DNA from: Hydrolagus colliei
Lineage: Eukaryota
NCBI GenBank assembly: GCA_035084275.1
Contig: CM068746.1
Coordinates: forward strand, 3,410,001 to 3,474,000
Length of the DNA: 64,000 nucleotides
Reading direction: 5' to 3'
Below, piece after piece: positions 1,900 through 57,250 of this stretch; the stretch's first letter is position 1, and the number at the start of each line of letters is the position of its first letter. The notes beneath the pieces are model-generated. The model was not told the origin of the DNA. It saw only the letters and a list, made by a program, of their open reading frames with translations, and searched no databases. Made by a program: the position numbers and the translations under genes.

Positions 1900-2476
1900 A
1901 CCCTGTTTGGAGCGAGATAGACAGACGGGGGGTGGGTTGCCCCCCCGCCGGCCCACAGGGTACAGCGGCTTTCCTGGGCAAACCTGCCCGATTGCCCGTC
2001 AGCCGCGAGTCCTTTTATACCGGGAAACTGCCGTGCCCCCCACGGCGAGGCAACCCCTCACTCACTCCCTCACGTCAGTCACTCTACCTACCTACCTACC
2101 TACCTACTTGTCTGTCAGTTCCGGGCGCAGTGCCTGCCACACCGGGCTGCTTCCCATCCCGCAGCCATAAATAGATTAAAACAAATAACCAGGCGAGTTA
2201 GGCCTCCTTCTCTCCCTCCCTCACACACACAGAGAAGGGTGTACAGACTCGGTTAGTCAGTACAGGATGACCGACCGTCAGGGGGGGGGGAGAGGCAGAA
2301 CAAACACAGGGCGTTTAGAGGTGATTTTTATTTTAAAAAACTCAATATATGTATTATATAGACTTACCCAGCTCTGACACGCAAATCAAAGCTCACTCTC
2401 ATGAACCGTCAGCTTGTTGCTGCTGGGGCCGTTACAAACGGCCGCCTGTCGCGCCGCTTCAAACCCCAACGGTCGC

Positions 2477-2507
<31 letters not shown>

Positions 2508-2750
2508 CAGCCCGAGACAGGGGAGGGGTGGGGGAGGAGAGAGATCTGCCTCAAAACCCGGAGCTGGAATTATCACCCATTCCGACAGCGCGAACTCCAG
2601 GCGTCTCTCCGTTCCTTCTCTCCACCCACTTACCCACCCCAATCCACCCGTTCCCTTTCGGAACTCACCGCTCCGCATTTTCCGATTCACTCCTTTCCTT
2701 TTAAGGTGATCTTCCCGTGTGCACTGGTCGCCGAGTTGGGTCAACGACAA
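1900..2750. promoter_or_regulatory. CpG-rich promoter / first-exon region of the minus-strand gene (GRAMD4)
   Basis: GC- and CpG-rich (gcgccgc, cgccgcgcgcgc) against an AT-rich background. Several minus-strand donor sites: GTAAGT at 2367-2362 and 2633-2628, GTGAGT at 2668-2663. Confidence 0.6.
2368..2402 (-). CDS. GRAMD4: Probable first coding exon of GRAM domain-containing protein 4, long isoform (MRVSFDLRVRAG, phase-2 end)
   Basis: Minus strand reads ATG AGA GTG AGC TTT GAT TTG CGT GTC AGA GCT GG|GTAAGT: a consensus donor, with an in-frame TGA three codons upstream of the ATG, in a CpG-rich region. The peptide resembles my recollection of the mouse Gramd4 N-terminus (..MQVSFDLHVQAG|ERHVR..). 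GRAMD4 is the head-to-head neighbour of CELSR1 in human. Not database-verified. Confidence 0.65.
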
Positions 2751-2803
2751 CAACAACAGCAGCAACAACGACAACGACGACAACAGCAACAACAGCAACA
2801 ACA
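2743..2803. repeat. (CAA/CAG/CGA)n trinucleotide microsatellite
   Basis: acgacaacaacaacagcagcaacaacgacaacgacgacaacagcaacaacagcaacaaca. Confidence 0.9.
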
Positions 2804-2910
2804 GATGCTTACATGAGGAAGAATCAGAGTCCATATGTTTTGAGGTAGGCGCTGGGCAGTTCCAGGGGATTGGTAATGAATGTTGCTTTGGTTCAGGAGT
2901 CTGCCATTCA

Positions 2911-3668
2911 GGAGTCCTGTAGCTCAGTGGTTAGAGCATGCGCTTCCACAAGTGAAAGGCACTGGGTTCGATTCCGGGTTAGGGCAAAAAACGTTGAGCA
3001 AGACTTTCCTTTACTCCACACTCCACCCGATAGTCATCCCTGAAACAAACAAGCATAAAATTGGTCACTTCAATTTCCCTGGCTGTTTGTGGGGGATGGA
3101 ATTGGCTACCACGTTCCAACAACAACAACAACAACAACAACAACTTTGATGTATATAGCGCCCTCCACGCCGGACAGCGTCTCAGAGCGCTTCACAGTAA
3201 CGGATCCCGGGACCGAGCCAGGGGCAGGGGTAGAAAGGTGACCAAAGGCGCGGTCGAAGAGAACGATCTTTAGCTGTGAACCTGAAACTGGGAAGAGAGG
3301 GGGCGAGGCGAAGGGAATGAGGGAGGGAGTTCCAGAGCCTCGGGGCGCGGTGGCTGAAGGCACGGCCGCCGAGGGTGGAGCGGAGGATTCGGGGGGACAT
3401 GGAGGAGGCCAGACCCAGAGGAGCGAAGGCAGCGGGTGCTGGTTTGGGGGGAGAGGAGATCAGAGAGATAGGGGGGTGCAGAGGAGTGGAGGGATTTGAA
3501 AACAAGGGTGAGGATCTTGAAGTCCATCCTCTCAAGGATCTGCCCACAAATACACAGTCAATTCACTTTACAGTATATTCCATGAAGCACTTTGAGAAGT
3601 CAAGAAGATGTGAAAAGTGTTATATCAAATGCAAAGATTATTATTATTATTATTAATATTATTATTAT
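2911..3668 (+). mobile_element. Young tRNA-headed SINE, split by an L2 insertion (3118-3540)
   Basis: Head ggagtcctgtagctcagtggttagagc with A/B boxes; body breaks at ..ggctaccacgttc and resumes at gcccacaaatacacagtcaattcac..; (ATT)n tail. Confidence 0.9.
3118..3540 (-). mobile_element. LINE L2 3' fragment with (TTG)n tail
   Basis: Translates to the L2 ORF2 C-terminus (FKILTLVFKSLHSSAPPYLSDLL..RCLRSS; GGRAFSHRAPRLWNSLP); 3' stem-loop and (ttg)n tail. Confidence 0.9.
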
Positions 3669-8029: not shown

Positions 8030-8507
8030 AGATTCATAGATTCATAGAATTTTACGGCACAAAAGGAGGCCATTCGGCCCATCTAGTCTGTGCCGGCTCT
8101 TTGAAAAGAGCGATTTAATCCCACTGCCCTGCCCGCTCCCCATAGCCTAATAGACCTGTTCTCTCTAAATAAAGATCTAATTCCCTTTTAAAAGTTGTTA
8201 TCGAATCAGCCTCCACCACCTTTTCAGGCAATGCATTCCAGATTCGAACAACTCGCTGAGTGAAAAAAATTCTCCTCAGCTCCCCTCTACTGCGCCTTGA
8301 AACTATTTTAAATCTGTGACCACAAGTCACAGATTCGCCCACGAGTGGAAATAGATTTTCTCTATTTGCCCTGTCGAAACCCCTCATGATTTTATAAAGC
8401 TCTATTAGGTCTCCCCTCAATCTTCTCTGCTCCAGAGAGAATAACCCTAGCCTATCTAGCCTCTCCTCATAGCTGAAGTCCCTCAATCCTGGCACCATCC
8501 TAGTAAT
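8030..8507 (-). mobile_element. LINE CR1 3' fragment
   Basis: RMVPGLRDFSYEERLDRLGLFSLEQRRLRGDLIELYKIMRG..FFTQRVVRIWNALP is the CR1 ORF2 C-terminus; (tctatgaa)-type 3' microsatellite. Confidence 0.95.
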
Positions 8508-8514
8508 CCTAGTT

Positions 8515-8872
8515 ATCAATAATAATAATTTCTTGAATTTGATATAGCGCCTTATCAGGTCTTCGAGAAGTCTCAAAGCACTTCACAGAATATACTATAA
8601 AGTGAAATGACTGAATATTTTGCGGGAGAAACGCTGCAACCAATTACTCCCAGTAGTGACCCACAAATAGTTGACCCAATTTATTATAATGTTTTTTGAA
8701 GGAATTATTTCCCCCAGAAACATAGACAGTTGACTAAAAATGGATTCCTACTAACTGCTAGGTAAACTGCTAGTGTGGACAATGAAACTTGCTCAACGTT
8801 TCGCACTGCTGGGAATCAAGCACAGATCTCTCACTTAGGAGGAAAGTGCTATAACCATGAGCTACAAGACTC
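8515..8872 (-). mobile_element. Long-form SINE copy retaining an extended CORE-like segment
   Basis: Reverse complement reads head, then caagtttcattgtccacactagcagtttacctagcagttagtaggaatcc..ttagtcaactg, then Deu segment and tail. Confidence 0.8.
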
Positions 8873-29195: not shown

Positions 29196-29528
29196 NNNNN
29201 NNNNNNNNNNNNNNNNNNNNNNNNNNNNNNNNNNNNNNNNNNNNNNNNNNNNNNNNNNNNNNNNNNNNNNNNNNNNNNNNNNNNNNNNNNNNNNNNNNNN
29301 NNNNNNNNNNNNNNNNNNNNNNNNNNNNNNNNNNNNNNNNNNNNNNNNNNNNNNNNNNNNNNNNNNNNNNNNNNNNNNNNNNNNNNNNNNNNNNNNNNNN
29401 NNNNNNNNNNNNNNNNNNNNNNNNNNNNNNNNNNNNNNNNNNNNNNNNNNNNNNNNNNNNNNNNNNNNNNNNNNNNNNNNNNNNNNNNNNNNNNNNNNNN
29501 NNNNNNNNNNNNNNNNNNNNNNNNNNNN
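29196..29528. other. Assembly gap
   Basis: Run of N. Confidence 1.
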
Positions 29529-31635: not shown

Positions 31636-31722
31636 TGTGGGCAGTAAATATCGTGTGGACTCATGACCAGGATGGTGTCTGGCTGGTATTTTGCACAGTG
31701 AGTGAGTGTGAGTGTGGATACC

Positions 31723-32956
31723 ATGTGCCTGTATTATACCTGGAGGCTTCTCACACTGTTGCTCAGTGCCCCTCACTGGGTGTGTATAGAGCTGCATGTC
31801 TCACAGACAGACTGGGGGGGAGAGGGAGGGGTGATGTTGGCTGACATGTCCCTGTTGGGGGCTGGAGGCTGGAGGTACAGCTCCCTCAGCCCCCTGGACA
31901 CCTGCCTGAGGCTGGACCCAGAGGGAGGGCAACTGAGACTGAACTGCCCACTGGCATGTAACTACCCCACAGCCCTGAGACTGTACAGTCACTCACTCAC
32001 CTCCAGCATCACCACCAACCTCAACCTGTCTGTTCGCGGTCAGGACTGCTCCTTCCAACAACACGAGAGGGAATCTCTCTCTCTCCCCCTGCCTCCCCCT
32101 CTCCCCCTGCCTCTCACTCTCCCTCTCCAGCCCGACCTTCACATCAAACTCCTCCTGCGCTTCAACAACTCCAAGCACAGAGACCCCCGGACAGGCAGAG
32201 AGACGGAGACAGAGAGAGACACAAACGCGGGCACAGAGACCGTGTCGAGACTCTGTCGAGTAGCGGACACGGGGACGGAGACGGGCACGCACACTGTAAT
32301 AGATGCAGAGACAGACACAGGCGGAGGCACAGAGACAGCCCTCTGCCTGGGCCGTGAGGGACAAGTGCTTCTGACTGTGAGCCACTATCTACCTGCCTTC
32401 ATGAGACCGGCCGCTCTCTGGTGTGAAGGCGTGAAGGAGGCCCCCGGGCTGAGGCTGGTGCCGGGGGTGTCTGGGGGCCTGGTGGTCCTGGGGGGCTGCG
32501 TGATGCCGGGAGAGCGGCTGCTGACTGACTTGCTGTGCGCTCACAGCCCGACCCGGGCCTCGGGAGACCCCCGGGGCGGGCGGGGACCACGACAACGCTT
32601 GTCCATCCGCCTGGAGCTGTGGGCCGCCGAGCCGTCCGGCCCCGCGGCCCCGAGAGAGACCGGGAGGAGGGGGAGGAGGGGGAGGAGGAGGAGGAGGAGG
32701 AGTGCTAACAGCAGCCCGCAGTTCCAGCGGCCCAGTTATCACGTCTCCGTGGCCGAGAATCAACCGGCGGACACCCAGGTGATCGTCCTCAAAGCCAGTG
32801 ACCCGGACCAGGGGGACGCGGCCAGGCTCCAGTATTCCATGGAGTCGCTGAAGAACAAGAGATCCAGCAACTATTTCCAAGTGGACCCCGACACAGGCAG
32901 AGTCAGCACCACTCAAGCCCTAGATCGCGAGGACACAGAGACCCACGTCTTTAAAG
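31723..32956 (+). CDS. CELSR1: CELSR1 coding exon A: signal peptide, prodomain, furin site, most of cadherin repeat EC1
   Basis: accATG start; hydrophobic leader MCLYYTWRLLTLLLSAPHWVCIEL; RRRRRR|SANSSPQF; EC1 motifs (VAENQP, ASDPD, LDRE); donor AAG|GTGTGT at 32956/57. The start codon is less certain than the 3' end. Confidence 0.85.
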
Positions 32957-33044
32957 GTGTGTTTTTTTCCTCTGCTCTGTCTCTCTCTCTCTCTCTCACT
33001 CTCTCTCTCTCTCTCTGTGTATTGCTCTCTCTCTCCATATTATA

Positions 33045-33300
33045 TCCAGGCAGGGAGCCAATCCTTGGGCAAATTTCCGTACTCCACACACGCGCCCGAT
33101 AATAATCCCTCGACAAAAAAACCCATTATAATAAATCAGTCATTTCCATCCACGATTGTTCGCGGGACACTACTATGTGCGATTGGCTGTCGTGTTTCGC
33201 CCCAAAATTATATACAGTCAATTCATTTATATTTAGAGCGCATTTAGTAGTCTAGAGCACGTAAAAAGTTCTGTATCAAATGCAAGTATTATTATTATTA
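33045..33300 (+). mobile_element. Young SINE, 5'-truncated
   Basis: ccaggcaggg..ccttgggcaaatttcc..aaatgcaagtattattatt. Confidence 0.85.
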
Positions 33301-33403
33301 GAGGGTGTGTTTTCAGTTTTCAGAACAAAAACATCCACGTTCAGTTTCTGCGCTTAAAATATCCTGGAAGAATCCTTTCCATTTCTGTTTAAAACTTAGA
33401 TTT

Positions 33404-33745
33404 TTAATAATAATAATAATCCTTGCATTTGATATAGCGCTTTTCACATGTTATCGACGTCTCAAAGCGCTTCATGGAATATACTGTAAAGTGAATTGAC
33501 TGTGTATTTGTGGGTGAAACGCGGCAGCCAATTGCGCACAGCGGTGTCCCCCACAAACAGTCGTGGATTGAAATGACCAATTTTATTATTGTGGTTTTTT
33601 GGAGGGAGCACAGTATTATTATTAGGCATGTGTGTGTATGTGTGTGTAGAGTAAGGGAACTTGCGGAAGGTTTCGCCCTGACCTGCCTAGATTCGAGCTC
33701 AGGTCTCACGCTTGTAAGGCGAGTGCTCTAACCACTGAGCTACAG
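33404..33745 (-). mobile_element. Young SINE, full length
   Basis: Reverse complement of the consensus, with a short (TG)n expansion. Confidence 0.92.
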
Positions 33746-34170
33746 TAGCTCCCCAAGTTTTTCAGTGTTGAAATAGGGTCATGCTGGGGAAAAGGTTGGG
33801 AAGGTCTGGGCTCAGGCATTAATTAATATTAATCACGTTCATATGATGAATACATTTGTGTCAATACTATAATTGCTCACTCTTGGCAAATATCTCACTC
33901 TTGCATCCGCAGTGTTGACAGATATAATAATCCTGACCGTTTCCCTATTTGTTTTACTGTGCGTTGTAACAAATGTGTACATTGCACAATCTACAGGTGT
34001 TATTTTGGTTGGACTTTCCTAAGTGGATGTGCTCTGACATTCGCTCACACAATACACAGTCAATCCACTTGACAGTGTATCCTGTGAAGCACTTTGAGAC
34101 TTCGCTCTGACCTGATATAGCGCTGTATCCGATGCAAGGATTATTACTCTACATAATTTTATCACTGAGG

Positions 34171-34489
34171 TGTAGCTCAGTGGTTAGAGCATTCGCCTTA
34201 CAAGCATGAGACTTGTGCGTCCGAATCCAGGCAGGTCAGGGCGAAACCTTGGGCAAGTTTCCTTACTCCACACGCCTAATAATAATCCATCCCTCCCAAA
34301 AAAAATCCAATAATAAATTGGGAATTTCAATCCACGACTGTTGGTGGGGGACGCTGCTGCGCGCAATTGACTGCCATGTTTCGCCCAAAAATATATACAG
34401 TCAATTCACTTTACAGTATATTCCATGAAGCGCTTTGAGACGTCGATAAGATGTGAAAAGTGCTACATCAAATGTAAGGATTATTATTA
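34171..34489 (+). mobile_element. Young SINE, full length
   Basis: Consensus from head to tail. Confidence 0.92.
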
Positions 34490-34817
34490 TAGACAAGTGA
34501 GCTGTGACTGTGACTATTACTTATTGCAAATTATTACTATTATAACGATTATTATTACAGTGGTGGTTAGAAGTCCCAGATAAGTCCCTGGTGACTCGTT
34601 TCTCTGTGTGTCAGGAAAGCACAAGTTCCTGCCTGGGACGGTTTCAATCGCAGTGCTCAGGGAGAATTTGTCCTTCAGGTGAATTGTGTGTCTGCAATTT
34701 GTCGTCTACTGAGACTAATACGGTAAAATGCATTGGAGTACACCTGTGTCAAAACCACACTGCCTGCAACTGAGTCTATTTGTGGACTTGCCTGCATTCA
34801 GTAAAGATTGCTAAAGA

Positions 34818-35116
34818 TAATAATAATCTTGCATTTGACATAGCGCTTTTCACGTCTTATCGACGTCTCAAAGCGTTTCACAGAATATACTGTAAAGTGA
34901 ATTGACTGTATTTTTCTGGGCAAAATGCGCACAGCAGTGTCTCACAAGCAGTTGTGGATTGAAATGACCAATTTTTAAAAAAAAAATTTGGAGGGATTAT
35001 TAGTAGGCGTGCAGAGGAAGGAAACTTGCCCAAGGTTTCGCCCTGACCTGACTGGAATTGAACCCAGGTCTCTCGCTTGTGAGGCGTGTGCTCTAACCAC
35101 TGAGCTACAGGACTCC
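34818..35116 (-). mobile_element. Young SINE, near full length
   Basis: Reverse complement of the consensus, ending agctacaggactcc. Confidence 0.92.
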
Positions 35117-36879
35117 CAATTTAATGGATTGTGCACTTGAGGAGTGGGGAATAGAAATTGTGTTGCTGTTCTTAGTTCCTGGCACTGAATATACTTCTGA
35201 TTAAACTCAGCAAGGGGTTGGTGTATGAATGAAACCGTTAACCCAATGGCTCCATTGATGAGTAACTGGCCGGCTATTGAGATGCATAGATCACAAAGAG
35301 GGTTTTTTGCTTTGCCGAGTAAATTGACCTCTGGCGTGACATTAGGCTTGTTACATTTAGCATCACTACCATTGGGCTGGAAGGTTGATAAAACAGCAGG
35401 GATCCTGTTGGAGATTTCTGTTTAGTGACCACTGCTGGAAAATGTCAGGAAGAAGGAAATGCTCGATTTATCTTTCCTATTTTGACGTCGATATCTCACT
35501 GGCAATGTAAACTCAGTGCAAATCTCCCGTCTCGGACAGTTATTTACACAGATCGTGTGGAGTTAGTTCATTCATTATCACAAACAATTATTGAAGCTGG
35601 ATCAATGGAATAATTGGAAAGCGAACTGGATAAGCGGCTAATTGATGTGTTATCACACTGAGGGATATGTTGAACCTTGAAAGTACGGATAATAAAAGGG
35701 GTAAATTTAAAATCACTGAGAGCCGAATGGCCTGAATATTGTCATTTCCATCAAGCAAAGCACATGTTAAGATGTCTAGGCGTAAATTATCTCTGTAATT
35801 TGCTCCCATGTAAACTCTCATTGGTTTGGGTAGCTTGATCCACTCTCTTTGGAGCTGAATAATGATTGGATTTGTAATCTTAGCAGTGATATTGATCTGG
35901 TTGTTTATTGGTGGTGTACAGGGTTGTTAAAAGCACTTATTCAATAATAACTCCATGTAATTAACTTCCAGTATTTATGGATAAGTTTAGGATCAGTAAA
36001 GAAAGTAATGATTGCTCGGGAGTACAGTATAACTTAAAATTCAAGTTTTTTTTATGGTAGACGCAGAAATTTTTAAAACAGGGAAAAAAATCTTTGATTT
36101 CCTCAACAACCCAATCCCATTTTTATGGTTCTTAACTCCAGATATACCTTCTCTTTTCAGAAACATGTCTACTGCTGTATTTTATTGTTATACTGCAAGA
36201 GATGAAAGGCAAGGAAGTTTATAACTCAGCTAAGATCTCAATCTCAGAACTGTGTACAGTTTTATTTATTAACGCTTCATAAACATTTTTTATTGCAGAT
36301 AATAGTAACACTTTGATATAATATTTTATCTCAATCTCATCCTTCAAATGTCTCAAAGCACTTAAATATACTGTAAAATGAATTCATTATATTTTGGGCA
36401 ATTTGTGGGCGAATTTCATTCGACAGTCAATTGCGTTCAGCAGTGTCCCATAAACAGTTATGGATTGAGTGAGCGATTTTTTTTTGGAAGAAATGAATAC
36501 TCCCTTTATGAATCAAGAATGCAACTGAACATTTATCACCAAACATATATCACGAGTATCTGTTTGTGATGACTTGCCTACAGAAGACACAGTGCCAGTA
36601 AATACTGTTAAGCGTTTTGAGACATATTCCTGATGTGAAAGGAGTTGTGCCAAATGCAAGGATTATTATTGTCTACTTTTATTATTACAGACGTTTGATC
36701 CATTACAGCAACATCAGTTCTCCCCATTTCAAAATTCAGACTTGGGGCAGCCTGAAAGAATATTGTACTCTTGGACAATTAATAAAAACTTAACATTTAA
36801 TTTCTAACATTCAGAGTGAGCAAGAAGTTCTGTTAACTATTCTGTTACCTAAAAAAAATTCCCAAATATCATAATTTCT

Positions 36880-37115
36880 TTAATAATAGTAATAATCCTT
36901 GCATTTGATATAGTGCTTTTCACGAATTCTAGACGTCTCAAAGCGCTTCACAGAATAATCAGATAAAGTGAATTGACTGTATATTTGTGGGTGAAACGCG
37001 GCAGCCAATTTTGCACAGCAGCGTCCCAGCAGTCGTGGATTGAGTGAGGGGTTATTATGAGGCGTGTGGAGTAAGGAAACTTGCCTGATGTGTTGCACCT
37101 GACCTGCCTGGAATT
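36880..37115 (-). mobile_element. Young SINE, 5'-truncated
   Basis: Reverse complement of tail and body. Confidence 0.85.
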
Positions 37116-38088
37116 GAAAAAAAAATTGATAAATGGAAATTCAAAATTGCTGTGGTTGCGAGATTGAGATTGTGTGCAATATTTTTTCTGACTTTTAAGA
37201 TTTATTGGACTTTGTAACGGTGTTGCAAGTTTTTGATCACGCTGCATCAATGTTACCCCCCAAAAAAACTCCCAAGTCCTCGGGAAAGCTGCTTTAAAAA
37301 TCAATTGTGTTCACTCAATTCTATCTGATCGTAAGTAGGTGATTGCTGACAAATGTTTGACCCCTTTCTCAGAGAAAGATTGTTTGTTGACCTTTTTGAA
37401 GCTCGTTTTCCCCGCAACATCGTAAGAACGGTGTGTGTTCCGTTTCCTTGTCTGTCAATAACGGCCGCCTGGCTATTATTCATGTATGAAGTTCGATGGT
37501 GAGGATCGGGAGGCTGTTCGAGGATTGGGAGACACATCCAAACCTTGATTCTGTCCTCACCTGCCATACATACACACTCCTAATTTCCCAGCTTCTCGTG
37601 GCTTTAATTAGCCATTAGAAGCCAGAAACCCCGAGCAGTCTTTCCCTCAACCAGTTTCAATTGAGGCACGCCACTGTGGCCCCCACCTGACATCAGCTAA
37701 TTTGTATTGACAATCTCCTAACCCACAACGCTGGTTTTGCCGAGCCAGTGTTCTGACATAGTCTTCATCTACCAGGCGATTTGGGCTCATTTACCTGATA
37801 CAGTATTTGACAGTCAAGATGAGTTGATATAGTGACCAGTTTTGCCGCAGACGAGTTAACAATTCATGCGTACACACGCGGGAAGATGTAATAATGATTT
37901 TTAAAAAAACTACTAAGCTACACTGGGCAAAAGGTCGAAAGGTGCAGTGTAGATGTATAGATGCAAGTTGTTGTTTGTTGTTGTGAGGTTACATCTGCAG
38001 GTACTGGAGATTATGGATTATTTATGGTTTCTAACACGTCAACTTTTCTTCTCTTCCCCTCCCCCCCCCAACCCCGCGCCTTCTTAAG

Positions 38089-40617
38089 TCATTGCATACG
38101 ACCATGGAACACCTCGTAAAATGGGCGCTGCCATCCTGATTGTGACCGTCAGTGATGTGAATGACCACGCCCCTCTGTTTGAGCTGTCCGAGTACCGAGA
38201 GATCATTCGGGAGAACGTGGAGGTGGGCTACGAGGTGCTGACCATCCGAGCGACCGACAGCGACGCACATTCCAACGCCAACATGTTATACCGCATCGTC
38301 GACGGTGAGGGCGACAACACCGTCTTCGAGATCGATTCGCGTTCCGGGATCTTGAGGACCCGAGGGATCGTAGATCGGGAACTGGTGTCTGAGTACCGTT
38401 TGACAGTGGAGGCAAACGACCAGGGCAAAGATCCTGGTCCGCTCAGTGCTACGGCGGCTGTGTATATAACGGTAGAGGACGAGAATGACAACACGCCACA
38501 GTTTACCGAGAAACGGTACGTGGTGCAAGTGCCTGAAAACATTTCTGTTAATACCAAAATCCTGCAGGTCAAAGCTACTGACCACGACAAAGGCAACAAC
38601 GCCTTGATTCATTACAGCATTGTGAGCGGAAATATAAGAGGTCAGTTTTACATAGACTCCATGTCTGGCGATATTGATATTACAAACCCGTTGGATTACG
38701 AGTCAACAAGAGACTACACACTTCGTATCAAAGCGCAGGATGGCGGGCGACCGCCACTGATCAACAGCACTGGCTTGGTCTTGGTGCAAGTCATTGACGT
38801 GAACGACAATGCCCCGATATTCGTAAGCACGCCGTTTCAGGCCACGGTATTGGAGAACGTGGTCGTTGGTTATTCAATAATTCACATACAGGCTATCGAT
38901 GCTGATTCAGGGGAAAATGCTCGCTTGGAATACAGACTGTTAGATACCCCTGCAGGGTTTCCACTTGTTATAAGCAATAACACTGGTTGGATTACAGTGG
39001 CCGTGGAACTGGACAGAGAGACAAATGATTTTTATACTTTTGGCGTGGAAGCGAGGGACAACGGAGTCCCTTATATGACTTCCTCCGCCGACGTCAGCAT
39101 CACTGTGTTGGACGTGAACGACAACCACCCTACCTTTACCGAGAGAGCTTATCACCTGCGGCTGAACGAAGACGCGCCTTTGGGCAGCAGTGTGCTGACG
39201 GTCACGGCAATCGACAAGGATGTGAACAGCGTGGTGACCTACCAGATCTCGAGTGGCAACACGAGAAATCGCTTCTCGATAACCAGCCAGAGTGGGGGTG
39301 GACTGATCACGCTAGCCCTGCCCCTGGATTACAAGCAGGAAAGGCAGTACGTCCTTACGGTCACGTCGTCCGACGGAACGCTGACGGATACTGTTCAGGT
39401 GTTCATCAACGTGACGGACGCCAACACACACAGGCCGGTATTCCAGAGCTCGCATCACACAGTCAGCATCAACGAGGACAAGCCGGTCGGCACGAGAGTG
39501 ATGGTGATCAGCGCGACCGATGAGGACACGGGGGAGAATGCCAGGATAACGTACATCATGGAAGACAACATCCCCCAGTTTAAGATCCACCCGGACTCTG
39601 GAACCATCGTCACGCAGATGGAGCTGGACTACGAGGACCAAGCATCGTACACTTTGGCAATCACGGCGAGGGATAACGGCATCCCTCAGAAATCCGACAC
39701 CACCTACGTTGAGATTCTGGTCAACGATGCTAATGACAACAGCCCCCAGTTTGTGCGGGATCTGTACCAGGGCACCATTTATGAAGACGTTCCCATGTCC
39801 ACCAGCGTGCTGCAGGTTTCAGCCACCGACCGCGATTCAGGGCTGAACGGCCGGGTGTTTTACACCTTCCAAGGTGGCGAGGATGGGGATGGAGATTTCT
39901 ACATTGAATCCTCGTCGGGGATCGTTCGCACGGGAAGAAAGTTAGACCGCGAGAATGTGCCGATTTACAGTTTGAAAGCCTACGCCGTCGACAAGGGTAA
40001 CCCGCCACTCAAGGTGGTTGTGAACATTCAGGTCACTGTTCTGGATGTGAACGACAACGCTCCCGCCTTCGAGAAGGACGAGTTTGACCTCTTCATCGAT
40101 GAGAATAGTCCTGTCGGCTCATCGGTCGCCCGGATCATCGCGACCGATCCCGACGAAGGGACCAACGCGCAGATAATGTACCAGATCGTGGAAGGAAACA
40201 TTCCCGAGGTTTTCCATCTGGATATGTTTACCGGAGACCTCTCCGCCCTTACCGATCTGGATTACGAAATCAGAACCGAGTACGTCATTGTGGTCCAGGC
40301 CACGTCGGCACCTTTGGTTAATCGAGCCACAATCCACATTCGGCTGGTGGATCAAAACGACAACGCTCCGGTGCTTCAAAATTTTGAGATCATTTTCAAC
40401 AACTACGTTACCAACAAGTCGAATAGCTTTCCTTCAGGTGTGATCGGGAGGATTCCAGCCCATGACCCGGATATATCGGACAACCTTCTTTACACCTTTG
40501 TGGAGGGCAATGAGCTGAATCTTCTGATTTTGGATGAATACAACGGATATCTAAAGCTGAGTCAGAACTTGGACAACAACCGACCTCTAGAAGCAATTTT
40601 GAAGATCTCGGTCACAG
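38089..40617 (+). CDS. CELSR1: CELSR1 coding exon B: end of EC1 through most of EC9 (2529 nt, phase 1-1)
   Basis: Open frame of tandem cadherin repeats (DxNDN, LDRE/LDYE, AxDxG). CELSR1-type signatures: GPLSATAAVYI, PPLINSTG, DGDFYIE, NNYVTNKSNSFP, LDNNRPLEA. Donor ACAG|GTAGGA falls at the position where mammalian exon 1 ends. Confidence 0.95.
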
Positions 40618-42574: not shown

Positions 42575-42960
42575 ATTCGCCCACAAATATATACAGTCAT
42601 ATTCACTTTACAGTATATTCTGTGAAGCGCTTTGGTACGTTGATAAGATGTGGAAAGCGCTATATCAAATGCAAGGATTATTATTTATTCTAGAGGAAAC
42701 GGAATCTACAACGACGACAACAAGAACAACAACAAAATGACATGTGTACAGCGCATTTCACGTCGGGAGAACGCCCTGATGCGCTGGACAGTCAGTGTTT
42801 CGGACCCGAGCTGGGGACGGGATCGTGGAGGGAAAGGGATGGAAGTGGGGTGACCGATTGCACCATCGAAGAAGTAGATCTGGAGCAGGCTGGAGCCCGC
42901 TGAGCAGAGGGAACGGATAGGTTGATTGGGGGTTAGGAGTTCACAGAGGTGGTTGTCACA
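42575..42960. mobile_element. SINE tail (+, 42575-42685) and L2 3' end (-, 42708-42960)
   Basis: Family tail; then (caa)n, stem-loop and G-rich UTR of L2. Confidence 0.75.
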
Positions 42961-55555: not shown

Positions 55556-57250
55556 TAGGGAACGGCGATGTATCGGTTTTTCGATTAAACCCGATATGAT
55601 TTTCAGATCGGTGTGCCGATATGGTGATTCTAAAAAAAACGTTATATCGAGAGATTCGATTTAAAAAATATACATTGTTATATTTTTAATATCGTTCCTG
55701 GCAATATATCAATATTGTTGGTATTATCAGTGTAATGCGATCTTTTCCAGCTTACCTTGTCGCCGGCATTGCAACCTCCTAGACCTAAAGCATGGAATGC
55801 GCGTACATTCAGTGCGCGAGCACAATTAACGGGCGCGCACATCCGATGCGCACGCACACTTTACTGTGTATACTCGACGTGAGTCGTGGCGTCTTAACAA
55901 AGTCGCATCGCTGAAAACTGTAGTTTGAAAATTTACCTTTCTCATCATGGGGAAAAGAAGCCCCGTAAGGGACTAGTAATGGTGTGTATAGATGTACAGT
56001 TTGCAAGGTCTTGGTTAAGACATCTGATTCGAGCACGAGCAACCTGCGACATCACATTAAGCAGCACCACCCCGCCCAGCACGCTGCCCTCAGAGCGAAA
56101 TCATTGTCGACAACAGTAGGAAGTCGAACCAGCGCTTCGGAGAAAGCGACAGGTAGTGGGGCCAGTGCAGCTCAAACAATTCCTGCTTTATTTAAGAGGA
56201 GAACATTGTACCAGAGAGGGGACAAAAAGTGGCAAAGTATCACGAACGCTGTCACTTTTTGCATAGCAAAGGAGAGCTTGCCAATGGCGAAGGACATTAA
56301 TTCAGACTTCAGACTACATAAAAATAAGTGTCTAGTCAGACACACACATAGAAGCAGTGATAATCTGGCTTCTAACTCTAACAGTCAGACTGTCTGTTTC
56401 TCTCTTTTCTATTGTAATAGATCTCATTTACACGTGGACATTACATGCTAGTTTCAAGCAAGAAATGGAGGAGAATAAATCTCTAGATTTTGTTTTTGGT
56501 GTGTGTGTGTGTTCTATTTTGTGTTTAGAGGTGGAGGGAGAGAAGGAGAGGGGGAAAGTTGGGAGAGAAGGAGAGAGGAAGAGAGGAGAGGGAGGGAGAG
56601 AATGTGAGGGTGAAAGGAGGGAGAGAAGGAGCGAGGGGAAAGAGGGAGAGAAGGAGAGAGGAAGAGAGGAGAGGGAGGGAGGGAGAGAAGGAGAGGGTGA
56701 AAGGAGGGAGAGAAGGAGCGAGGGGAAAGGNNNNNNNNNNNNNNNNNNNNNNNNNNNNNNNNNNNNNNNNNNNNNNNNNNNNNNNNNNNNNNNNNNNNNN
56801 NNNNNNNNNNNNNNNNNNNNNNNNNNNNNNNNNNNNNNNNNNNNNNNNNNNNNNNNNNNNNNNNNNNNNNNNNNNNNNNNNNNNNNNNNNNNNNNNNNNN
56901 NNNNAGAAGGAGAGAGGAGAGGAGGGAGAGAAGGAGAGGGGGAGGTAGAGAGCAAACAACATCGTATAATTCAACAGACCTTGACACCAACATCACAAAC
57001 TTTCTGGACCTAGAGCACGCATTTCGAAATGTGCGTGCACCGCGACTGCGCGCGCATCGTCAGTGCGGACGCACCGTCAATGGGCGCGCACCGCGACTGA
57101 GCGCGCACCATAAATGCGCGCGCGCCATCAATGCACGCGCACTTTGAATGCACGCGCATGCGCAGTATAAAAACTCGATAGATCGGTTTAAGCAGGTATG
57201 AGCAAACCGATATATCCATTTCCGGAAAAATCCCATATCGCCGTTCCCTA
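55556..57250 (+). mobile_element. hAT (Ac/ZBED1-like) transposon, internally deleted, with BED-finger remnant
   Basis: Perfect 8-bp TSD aatttcag; TIR tagggaacggcgat / atcgccgttcccta; MGKRSPV(R)D* then CTVCKVLVKTSDSSTSNLRHHIKQHH (C2H2 BED finger) and KWQSITNAVTFCIAKESLP. Contains the gap at 56731-56904. Confidence 0.93.
56731..56904. other. Assembly gap
   Basis: Run of N. Confidence 1.

What the first reader, a model, noticed from the sequence alone, without database searches (positions are those of the whole stretch)
32957..38088. An intron splits the normally uninterrupted giant cadherin exon of CELSR1
Seen: exon A ends ..GTC TTT AAA G|GTGTGT and exon B starts cttaag|TC ATT GCA TAC GAC CAT GGA. 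Splicing rebuilds the EC1 F-strand HVFKVIAYDHG, and a clean branch point and pyrimidine tract are present. Established: mammalian CELSR1-3 encode the signal peptide and nearly all nine cadherin repeats in one large first exon that ends where exon B ends. Inference: either a lineage-specific intron gain, which is rare in vertebrates, or an ancestral intron lost elsewhere.
Basis: partly seen in the sequence, partly recalled or inferred. Interest (0 to 1): 0.75.

Follow-up and report, generated by a model that had tools for sequence, protein, structure and literature searches.

The report
Cartilaginous-fish intron splitting CELSR1's giant exon
A 5-kb intron cuts the giant first exon of the cell-polarity gene CELSR1 in this chimaera and at the same codon in skates, while the bony-vertebrate copies examined lack it, so it was likely gained once in an ancestor of cartilaginous fishes, and it leaves most of the adhesion repeats on one exon that a stingray gene model skips.

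Summary
The intron is real: a 5,132-nt phase-1 GT-AG intron (32957-38088) inside the Val codon of cadherin repeat 1. The flanking exons match adjoining residues 7-84 and 86-943 of a mouse CELSR1 chain. The host is a chimaera (95% identical to Callorhinchus milii CELSR1). It is not a recent gain: a skate genomic ORF leaves the protein at the same codon and phase, and a stingray RefSeq isoform splices from this donor. Of 82 unspliced genomic ORFs, 81 read straight through (63 bony-vertebrate CELSR1, 18 CELSR2); the exception is a skate. One CELSR2 and one CELSR3-type DNA locus are also uninterrupted. One gain on the cartilaginous-fish stem is the simplest history (about 0.7). The intron makes the 2,529-nt exon B phase 1-1, hence skippable in frame; 1 of 54 cartilaginous-fish models skips it exactly, removing most of repeats 1-9. 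Not examined: junction reads, sharks proper, chondrichthyan CELSR2/3, gar, coelacanth, lamprey, amphioxus. No paper on this intron was found. It is a new case of a known kind, of moderate interest.

The parts
31723..32956 (+). CELSR1 exon A, coding part: predicted signal peptide, prodomain, basic RRRRS site (likely furin-type, from general knowledge) and cadherin repeat 1 up to the first base of the Val codon
   Evidence: Translation; Pfam cadherin at residues 339-409; tblastn to C. milii, skate and Heptranchias CELSR1; mouse 8vy2_A 7-84. The start ATG is inferred from likeness to shark N-termini.
32957..38088 (+). Phase-1 GT-AG spliceosomal intron, 5,132 nt, inside the F strand of cadherin repeat 1
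   Evidence: same boundary in skate ORF P0302 and stingray model P0271
38031..38088 (+). Predicted branch point (CTAAC, A at 38034), pyrimidine tract and acceptor AG
   Evidence: only branch-point-like match in the last 100 nt; AG-free zone 77 nt; 87% pyrimidine
33044..37112 (.). Five longer copies plus fragments of a roughly 325-nt tRNA-related SINE, both orientations (33044-33298 +, 33410-33744 -, 34166-34492 +, 34817-35109 -, 36886-37112 -); later filling, not at the intron ends
   Evidence: blastn, repeat finder, ARAGORN tRNA-like hit 35044-35113; the same element occurs throughout the window
38089..40617 (+). CELSR1 exon B, 2,529 nt (843 codons), phase 1 at both ends: end of repeat 1, repeats 2-8 and most of repeat 9
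   Evidence: donor CACAG|GTAGGA at 40617/40618; no later CELSR1 exon in the window

Best explanation
This is a GT-AG intron inside the first cadherin repeat of chimaera CELSR1, shared at the same codon with skates, that was likely gained once on the stem of cartilaginous fishes, into an exon that is uninterrupted in the bony-vertebrate CELSR1, CELSR2 and CELSR3 sequences examined. Shown: the splice signals, the seamless join, the same phase-1 boundary in a skate genomic ORF, a stingray model that uses this donor, and read-through in bony vertebrates. Inferred: (1) the major spliceosome removes it in most transcripts and gives an ordinary full-length receptor; (2) the gain predates the chimaera-elasmobranch split (about 400-420 million years, recalled); (3) it arose by insertion of foreign DNA after an exonic AAG (transposon or break repair), not by AGGT duplication, because the joined exon reads AAAG-TC and the Lys-Val AG|GT site would give phase 0; (4) the present intron body is later SINE filling. 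Side effect: exon B became phase 1-1, so it can be skipped in frame, most likely at low level.
For: Skate ORF P0302 is 331 of 332 residues identical to a Leucoraja CELSR1 model up to HVFK, then reads GELCVCVCLRERLS and ends; the Gly fits G|GT, phase 1, as in the window's HVFK|GVFF. Three skate-type genomic ORFs start at the first Met after the junction and run into the next intron (P0003 98.8% to Amblyraja). Hypanus sabinus isoform X4 reads THVFK|DGIHII, exactly 843 residues removed. 81 of 82 unspliced gene-caller ORFs read through: 56 teleost CELSR1, 7 tetrapod-like CELSR1, 18 CELSR2. Loci L001 (teleost CELSR2) and L002 (CELSR3-type) are uninterrupted in DNA. The tree puts the window beside C. 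milii in a chondrichthyan CELSR1 clade, support 100.
Against: No junction reads were examined. The skate donor rests on one unnamed ORF and the stingray boundary on one predicted model. Sharks proper were not scored, and all 20 unskipped shark models carry Ile, not Val, at the split codon, which changes the last exon base and leaves their state open. No gar, bichir, sturgeon, coelacanth, lungfish, cyclostome or amphioxus sequence was identified; CELSR3 rests on one locus; chondrichthyan CELSR2/3 are unscored. The C. milii lineage is reported to have the fewest intron changes among jawed vertebrates (PMC3964593, passages), which lowers the prior for a gain. The insertion route cannot be read from the sequence: the AAG at both junctions is also plain splice consensus.
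Confidence: 0.72

Rival explanations
1. The intron was gained in CELSR1 after the vertebrate genome duplications but before jawed vertebrates split, and was lost on the bony-vertebrate stem (one gain plus one loss).
For: Fits every scored sequence equally well; cartilaginous fishes are reported as slow in intron turnover (PMC3964593, passages), so they often keep the older state.
Against: Needs two events instead of one; no bony CELSR1 ORF of 63 keeps it.
Confidence: 0.12
2. The intron is older than the CELSR1/2/3 duplications and was lost independently in bony CELSR1, CELSR2 and CELSR3.
For: No invertebrate or cyclostome outgroup could be scored, so it is not excluded; chondrichthyan CELSR2/3 are unscored.
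Against: Needs at least two or three precise losses: 63 of 63 bony CELSR1 ORFs, 18 of 18 CELSR2 ORFs, L001 and L002 all read through.
Confidence: 0.09
3. Chimaeras and batoids gained introns independently at the same base, or the intron is patchy within cartilaginous fishes.
For: Sharks are unscored and differ at the split codon (Ile in 20 models); convergent insertion sites are reported for slc26 genes (PMC12357937, passages).
Against: Same codon and phase in a 3.7-kb coding stretch; the site is not a full AG|G proto-splice site.
Confidence: 0.05
4. The split is an assembly artefact, or a recent disruptive insertion that is not spliced (pseudogene).
For: No RNA evidence was examined; the region upstream is repeat-rich with a gap at 29196-29528.
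Against: Both exons are open and conserved (95% to C. milii); splice signals are intact; the same boundary exists in skates and a stingray.
Confidence: 0.02

Closest known systems
CELSR1 (ADGRC1) of bony vertebrates
   Same: Same gene by tree, same domain order, same intron at the end of the cadherin exon (ORFs end ISV[ST]G and run into the intron).
   Different: Bony CELSR1 ORFs read through repeat 1 (63 of 63); here repeat 1 is split and the rest of the repeats sit on an internal phase 1-1 exon.
Lineage-specific spliceosomal intron gains in vertebrates (slc26a1/a2 in Eurypterygii and notothenioids, PMC12357937, passages; melanocortin receptors in ray-finned fishes, PMC3151243, search listing only)
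   Same: A new GT-AG intron inside a long, otherwise uninterrupted coding exon, shared by a clade.
   Different: Those cases are in teleosts, the high-turnover lineage; this one is in cartilaginous fishes, reported as low-turnover, is far older, and has no transposon-like ends left.
Engineered mouse CELSR1 lacking CADH1-8 (PMC12038025, passages)
   Same: The exon-B-skipped stingray model also lacks repeats 2-8 and keeps EGF, LamG, GAIN and 7TM domains; the mouse construct lost aggregation and junction enrichment but kept signalling.
   Different: The skipped form also loses most of repeat 9, which anchors the CADH9-GAIN module, and leaves a repeat 1/repeat 9 hybrid four residues short in strand F; it is a predicted model, not a tested protein.

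Membership tests
CELSR1 orthologue | Groups with CELSR1, not CELSR2, in a tree | tested here: met
   sister to C. milii CELSR1 in a chondrichthyan clade (100); CELSR2 rows form a separate clade (100). Midpoint root; no CELSR3 row in the tree.
CELSR1 orthologue | Cadherin repeats ending in the CELSR ninth-repeat domain | tested here: met
   Pfam PF00028 (7 stretches) and PF23592 at 755-843 of exon B.
CELSR1 orthologue | EGF, LamG, GAIN and 7TM exons downstream | not testable with these tools
   No later exon lies in the window and no whole genome was available.
U2-type spliceosomal intron | GT-AG ends, branch-point-like site and pyrimidine tract; removal restores the reading frame | tested here: met
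   join matches C. milii residues 109/110.
U2-type spliceosomal intron | Spliced transcripts across the junction in this species | not tested
   No reads were examined; support is indirect (skate and stingray models).
Lineage-specific intron gain | Absent from orthologues in the sister group | tested here: met
   63 of 63 unspliced bony CELSR1 ORFs read through; teleosts and tetrapods only.
Lineage-specific intron gain | Absent from paralogues | tested here: met
   18 of 18 CELSR2 ORFs, L001 and L002; bony-type sequences only, one CELSR3-type locus.
Lineage-specific intron gain | Absent from outgroups to jawed vertebrates | not testable with these tools
   The metagenome scan returned 2 loci, neither an outgroup.
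Transposon-derived (introner-like) intron | Terminal inverted repeats or element ends at the splice sites, with a target-site duplication | tested here: not met
   None of the 25 longest inverted pairs shown (of 63) joins the intron ends; repeats are internal SINE copies. Age would erase such traces, so this lowers membership, not the origin route.
Intron gain by AGGT tandem duplication (PMC3443670, passages) | Joined exon reads AG|GT at the junction | tested here: not met
   Joined exon reads AAG|TC.

The most novel reading that the evidence does not exclude
The intron turned the whole adhesive rod of CELSR1 into one cassette exon, so that sharks, rays and chimaeras can switch by splicing between an adhesive receptor and a short, adhesion-less but signalling-competent one, an option that bony vertebrates cannot have because their repeats share an exon with the start codon and signal peptide.
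Probability: 0.15. Interest if true: 0.7.

Novelty: new member of a known kind. Interest (0 to 1): 0.42.

Why it matters
If the gain is right, it is a rare genomic change marking cartilaginous fishes as a group, in the lineage reported to have the fewest intron changes among jawed vertebrates, and in an exon kept whole in the other CELSR genes examined. It also has a testable consequence: in-frame skipping of 843 codons would give a natural counterpart of the engineered cadherin-less CELSR1, which in mouse loses adhesion but still signals (PMC12038025). If the skip is only splicing noise, the finding is a tidy phylogenetic marker and little more. The boundary is probably already implicit in public gene models, though no paper on it was found.

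Tried and rejected
No whole genome is held for this window, so paralogues and later exons of this species could not be read. Search for short exon-A-type proteins with a shark query: 1 unrelated hit, and it missed P0302, which is in the collection, so it says nothing. HMMER search of 1.84 billion representatives with the window's prodomain: 0 hits, uninformative. The 'longer' search was crowded by FAT/Dachsous-type cadherins; 6 of 120 rows were CELSR1. Metagenome scan: 2 loci from 78 pattern matches, no outgroup. AlphaFold test of the skipped repeat 1/9 hybrid: hybrid pLDDT under 50 over residues 1-99, but the native repeat-9 control also failed (under 50 over 1-86), so no verdict. The idea that the intron is a copy of the repeat-9 intron at the homologous position was rejected: it lies four codons upstream in the repeat alignment. 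NCBI/UniRef gene models (37 of the 120 rows, including Chiloscyllium CELSR2 P0012 and S. torazame P0123) were not scored for the intron because models join exons. Earlier scan notes: nothing relevant. Literature: ten searches showed no paper on this intron, judged from listings; 'celsr' has 0 hits in the readable supplement archive of PMC3964593, but its large supplementary PDF with the intron notes could not be read and may list it. The paper recalled for large protocadherin/CELSR exons (Wu and Maniatis 2000) was not available, so that point is recall.

Full report
Observation. The sequence shows the donor AAAG|GTGTGT at 32956/32957 and the acceptor CTTAAG|TC at 38088/38089. The intron is 5,132 nt and falls after the first base of a Val codon. 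Of 19 register shifts that keep the coding length, only this one has GT-AG ends; a CTAAC site lies 54 nt from the acceptor in a 77-nt AG-free, 87% pyrimidine stretch. Exon A's cadherin part matches residues 7-84 of mouse CELSR1 chain 8vy2_A and exon B residues 86-943, so the pieces abut with nothing missing or doubled. Reads across the junction were not examined.

Gene and host. Exon B is 95% identical to Callorhinchus milii CELSR1 and 84-86% to shark, ray and skate CELSR1, and up to 77% to bony-vertebrate hits. In a 128-row tree the window is sister to C. milii within a chondrichthyan CELSR1 clade (support 100), apart from CELSR2 (quick method, midpoint root, no CELSR3 row). The host is therefore a chimaera other than C. 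milii (inference).

Who has the intron. Proteins called on raw DNA contigs run on into introns, so they show exon limits. A skate ORF, P0302, is identical at 331 of 332 residues to a Leucoraja CELSR1 model up to HVFK and then reads GELCVCVCLRERLS and ends. A Gly there fits a phase-1 donor (G|GT), as in the window (HVFK|GVFF). Three further skate-type ORFs start at the first Met after the junction and run into the intron after exon B; this is supporting only, since their contigs are short. A RefSeq model of the stingray Hypanus sabinus, isoform X4, reads THVFK|DGIHII, with exactly the 843 residues of exon B absent, which needs a donor at the same base. So chimaeras and batoids share the boundary. 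Sharks proper were not scored; the 20 unskipped shark models have Ile where chimaeras and batoids have Val. C. milii models read through, but models join exons and do not show its state.

Who lacks it. One search listed the best 120 of 7,666 hits scored on exon B alone, so split and whole forms competed equally. Of these, 83 come only from gene-caller sources; the 37 with NCBI or UniRef models were dropped. 82 of the 83 end unspliced at the exon-B donor (P0118 was dropped as spliced). 81 of the 82 read through the junction: 56 teleost CELSR1, 7 tetrapod-like CELSR1 and 18 CELSR2, by the tree's clades; the exception is the skate ORF. Two DNA loci confirm this: L001, a teleost CELSR2, and L002, CELSR3-type by its LDRESMELHY motif (motif assignment recalled), both cross the codon without a break. 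A zebrafish celsr3 probe described as exon 1, nt 2327-3541 (PMC3154962, passages), agrees with a long first exon. No basal bony fish, cyclostome or invertebrate was identified, and chondrichthyan CELSR2/3 are unscored.

History. One gain on the cartilaginous-fish stem explains all scored sequences (0.72). A gain in early jawed-vertebrate CELSR1 followed by loss in bony vertebrates needs two events (0.12). An intron older than the paralogues needs at least two or three losses (0.09). Parallel gains (0.05) and artefact (0.02) are unlikely. The date, before the chimaera-elasmobranch split some 400-420 million years ago, is recalled, not computed. The elephant shark genome paper reports fewer intron gains or losses in C. 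milii than in any bony vertebrate (PMC3964593, passages), and a 2025 paper restates that turnover is low outside teleosts (PMC12357937, passages); this makes a gain here unusual and also keeps the loss scenarios alive.

How it arose and works. The intron has ordinary major-spliceosome signals, and its removal would give a normal receptor (inferred). The joined exon reads AAG|TC, not AG|GT, so the AGGT tandem-duplication route (PMC3443670, passages) does not fit; insertion of foreign DNA after an exonic AAG is the likelier route, but the AAG at both junctions is also consensus and proves nothing. The intron body holds five longer copies and fragments of a tRNA-related SINE found all over the window, none at the ends, so it is later filling. 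The site is four codons upstream of the position homologous to the repeat-9 intron, so it is not a copy of that intron.

Consequence. Exon B is 2,529 nt with phase 1 at both ends, so it can be skipped in frame. One of the 54 named cartilaginous-fish models examined does so (these include many isoforms per species, and most members of the largest cluster were not listed). That model keeps EGF, LamG, GAIN and 7TM domains and one partial cadherin match. Mouse CELSR1 without repeats 1-8 fails to aggregate cells or gather at junctions but signals normally, and repeat 9 holds the compact module against the GAIN domain (PMC12038025, passages). The skipped form would lose adhesion too, but it also loses most of repeat 9 and carries a hybrid repeat four residues short, so it may misfold. 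Structure prediction could not decide, because the native control also failed. Low-level noise is the likelier reading; a regulated isoform is put at 0.15.

Novelty and verdict. Ten literature searches listed no paper on this intron, and the readable supplement of PMC3964593 has no 'celsr'; its large supplementary PDF could not be read and most subscription journals are not covered. A 2026 adhesion-GPCR review gave nothing on it in the passages seen (PMC13197933). Interest 0.42.

Noticed in passing
window 31663-31701 (+): A 12-codon upstream ORF, in frame with CELSR1 and ending 21 nt before the likely start ATG at 31723; could dampen translation.
   Followed up: no
proteins P0181 (Hemiscyllium X4) and P0282 (Cetorhinus X9): Shark models that skip exons just after exon B (ISVT|GEHCEV; ISVT|GGVRNQ), so the exon-B donor is joined to several phase-1 acceptors.
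   Followed up: no
window 33410-33744, 34817-35109, 36886-37112 (-) and 42576-42685 (+): SINE copies in opposite orientation flank exon B on both sides, an arrangement that can favour exon circularisation or skipping (general knowledge); the element is common throughout the window, so this may be chance.
   Followed up: no
window 32050-32340 (+): The chimaera prodomain has low-complexity Pro/Leu and Thr/Glu stretches where the Heptranchias alignment is broken.
   Followed up: partly
window 8115-8582 (-): ORF fragment that resembles the end of a CR1-type LINE protein (resemblance recalled); no Pfam match.
   Followed up: partly
window 55969-56451 (+): Zinc-finger-like fragment, weak PF18658 match below the cut-off; possibly a DNA-transposon relic.
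   Followed up: partly
C. milii models P0148, P0257-P0264: All nine have differing, apparently incomplete N-termini upstream of repeat 1; the window gives a complete-looking chimaera exon A.
   Followed up: no
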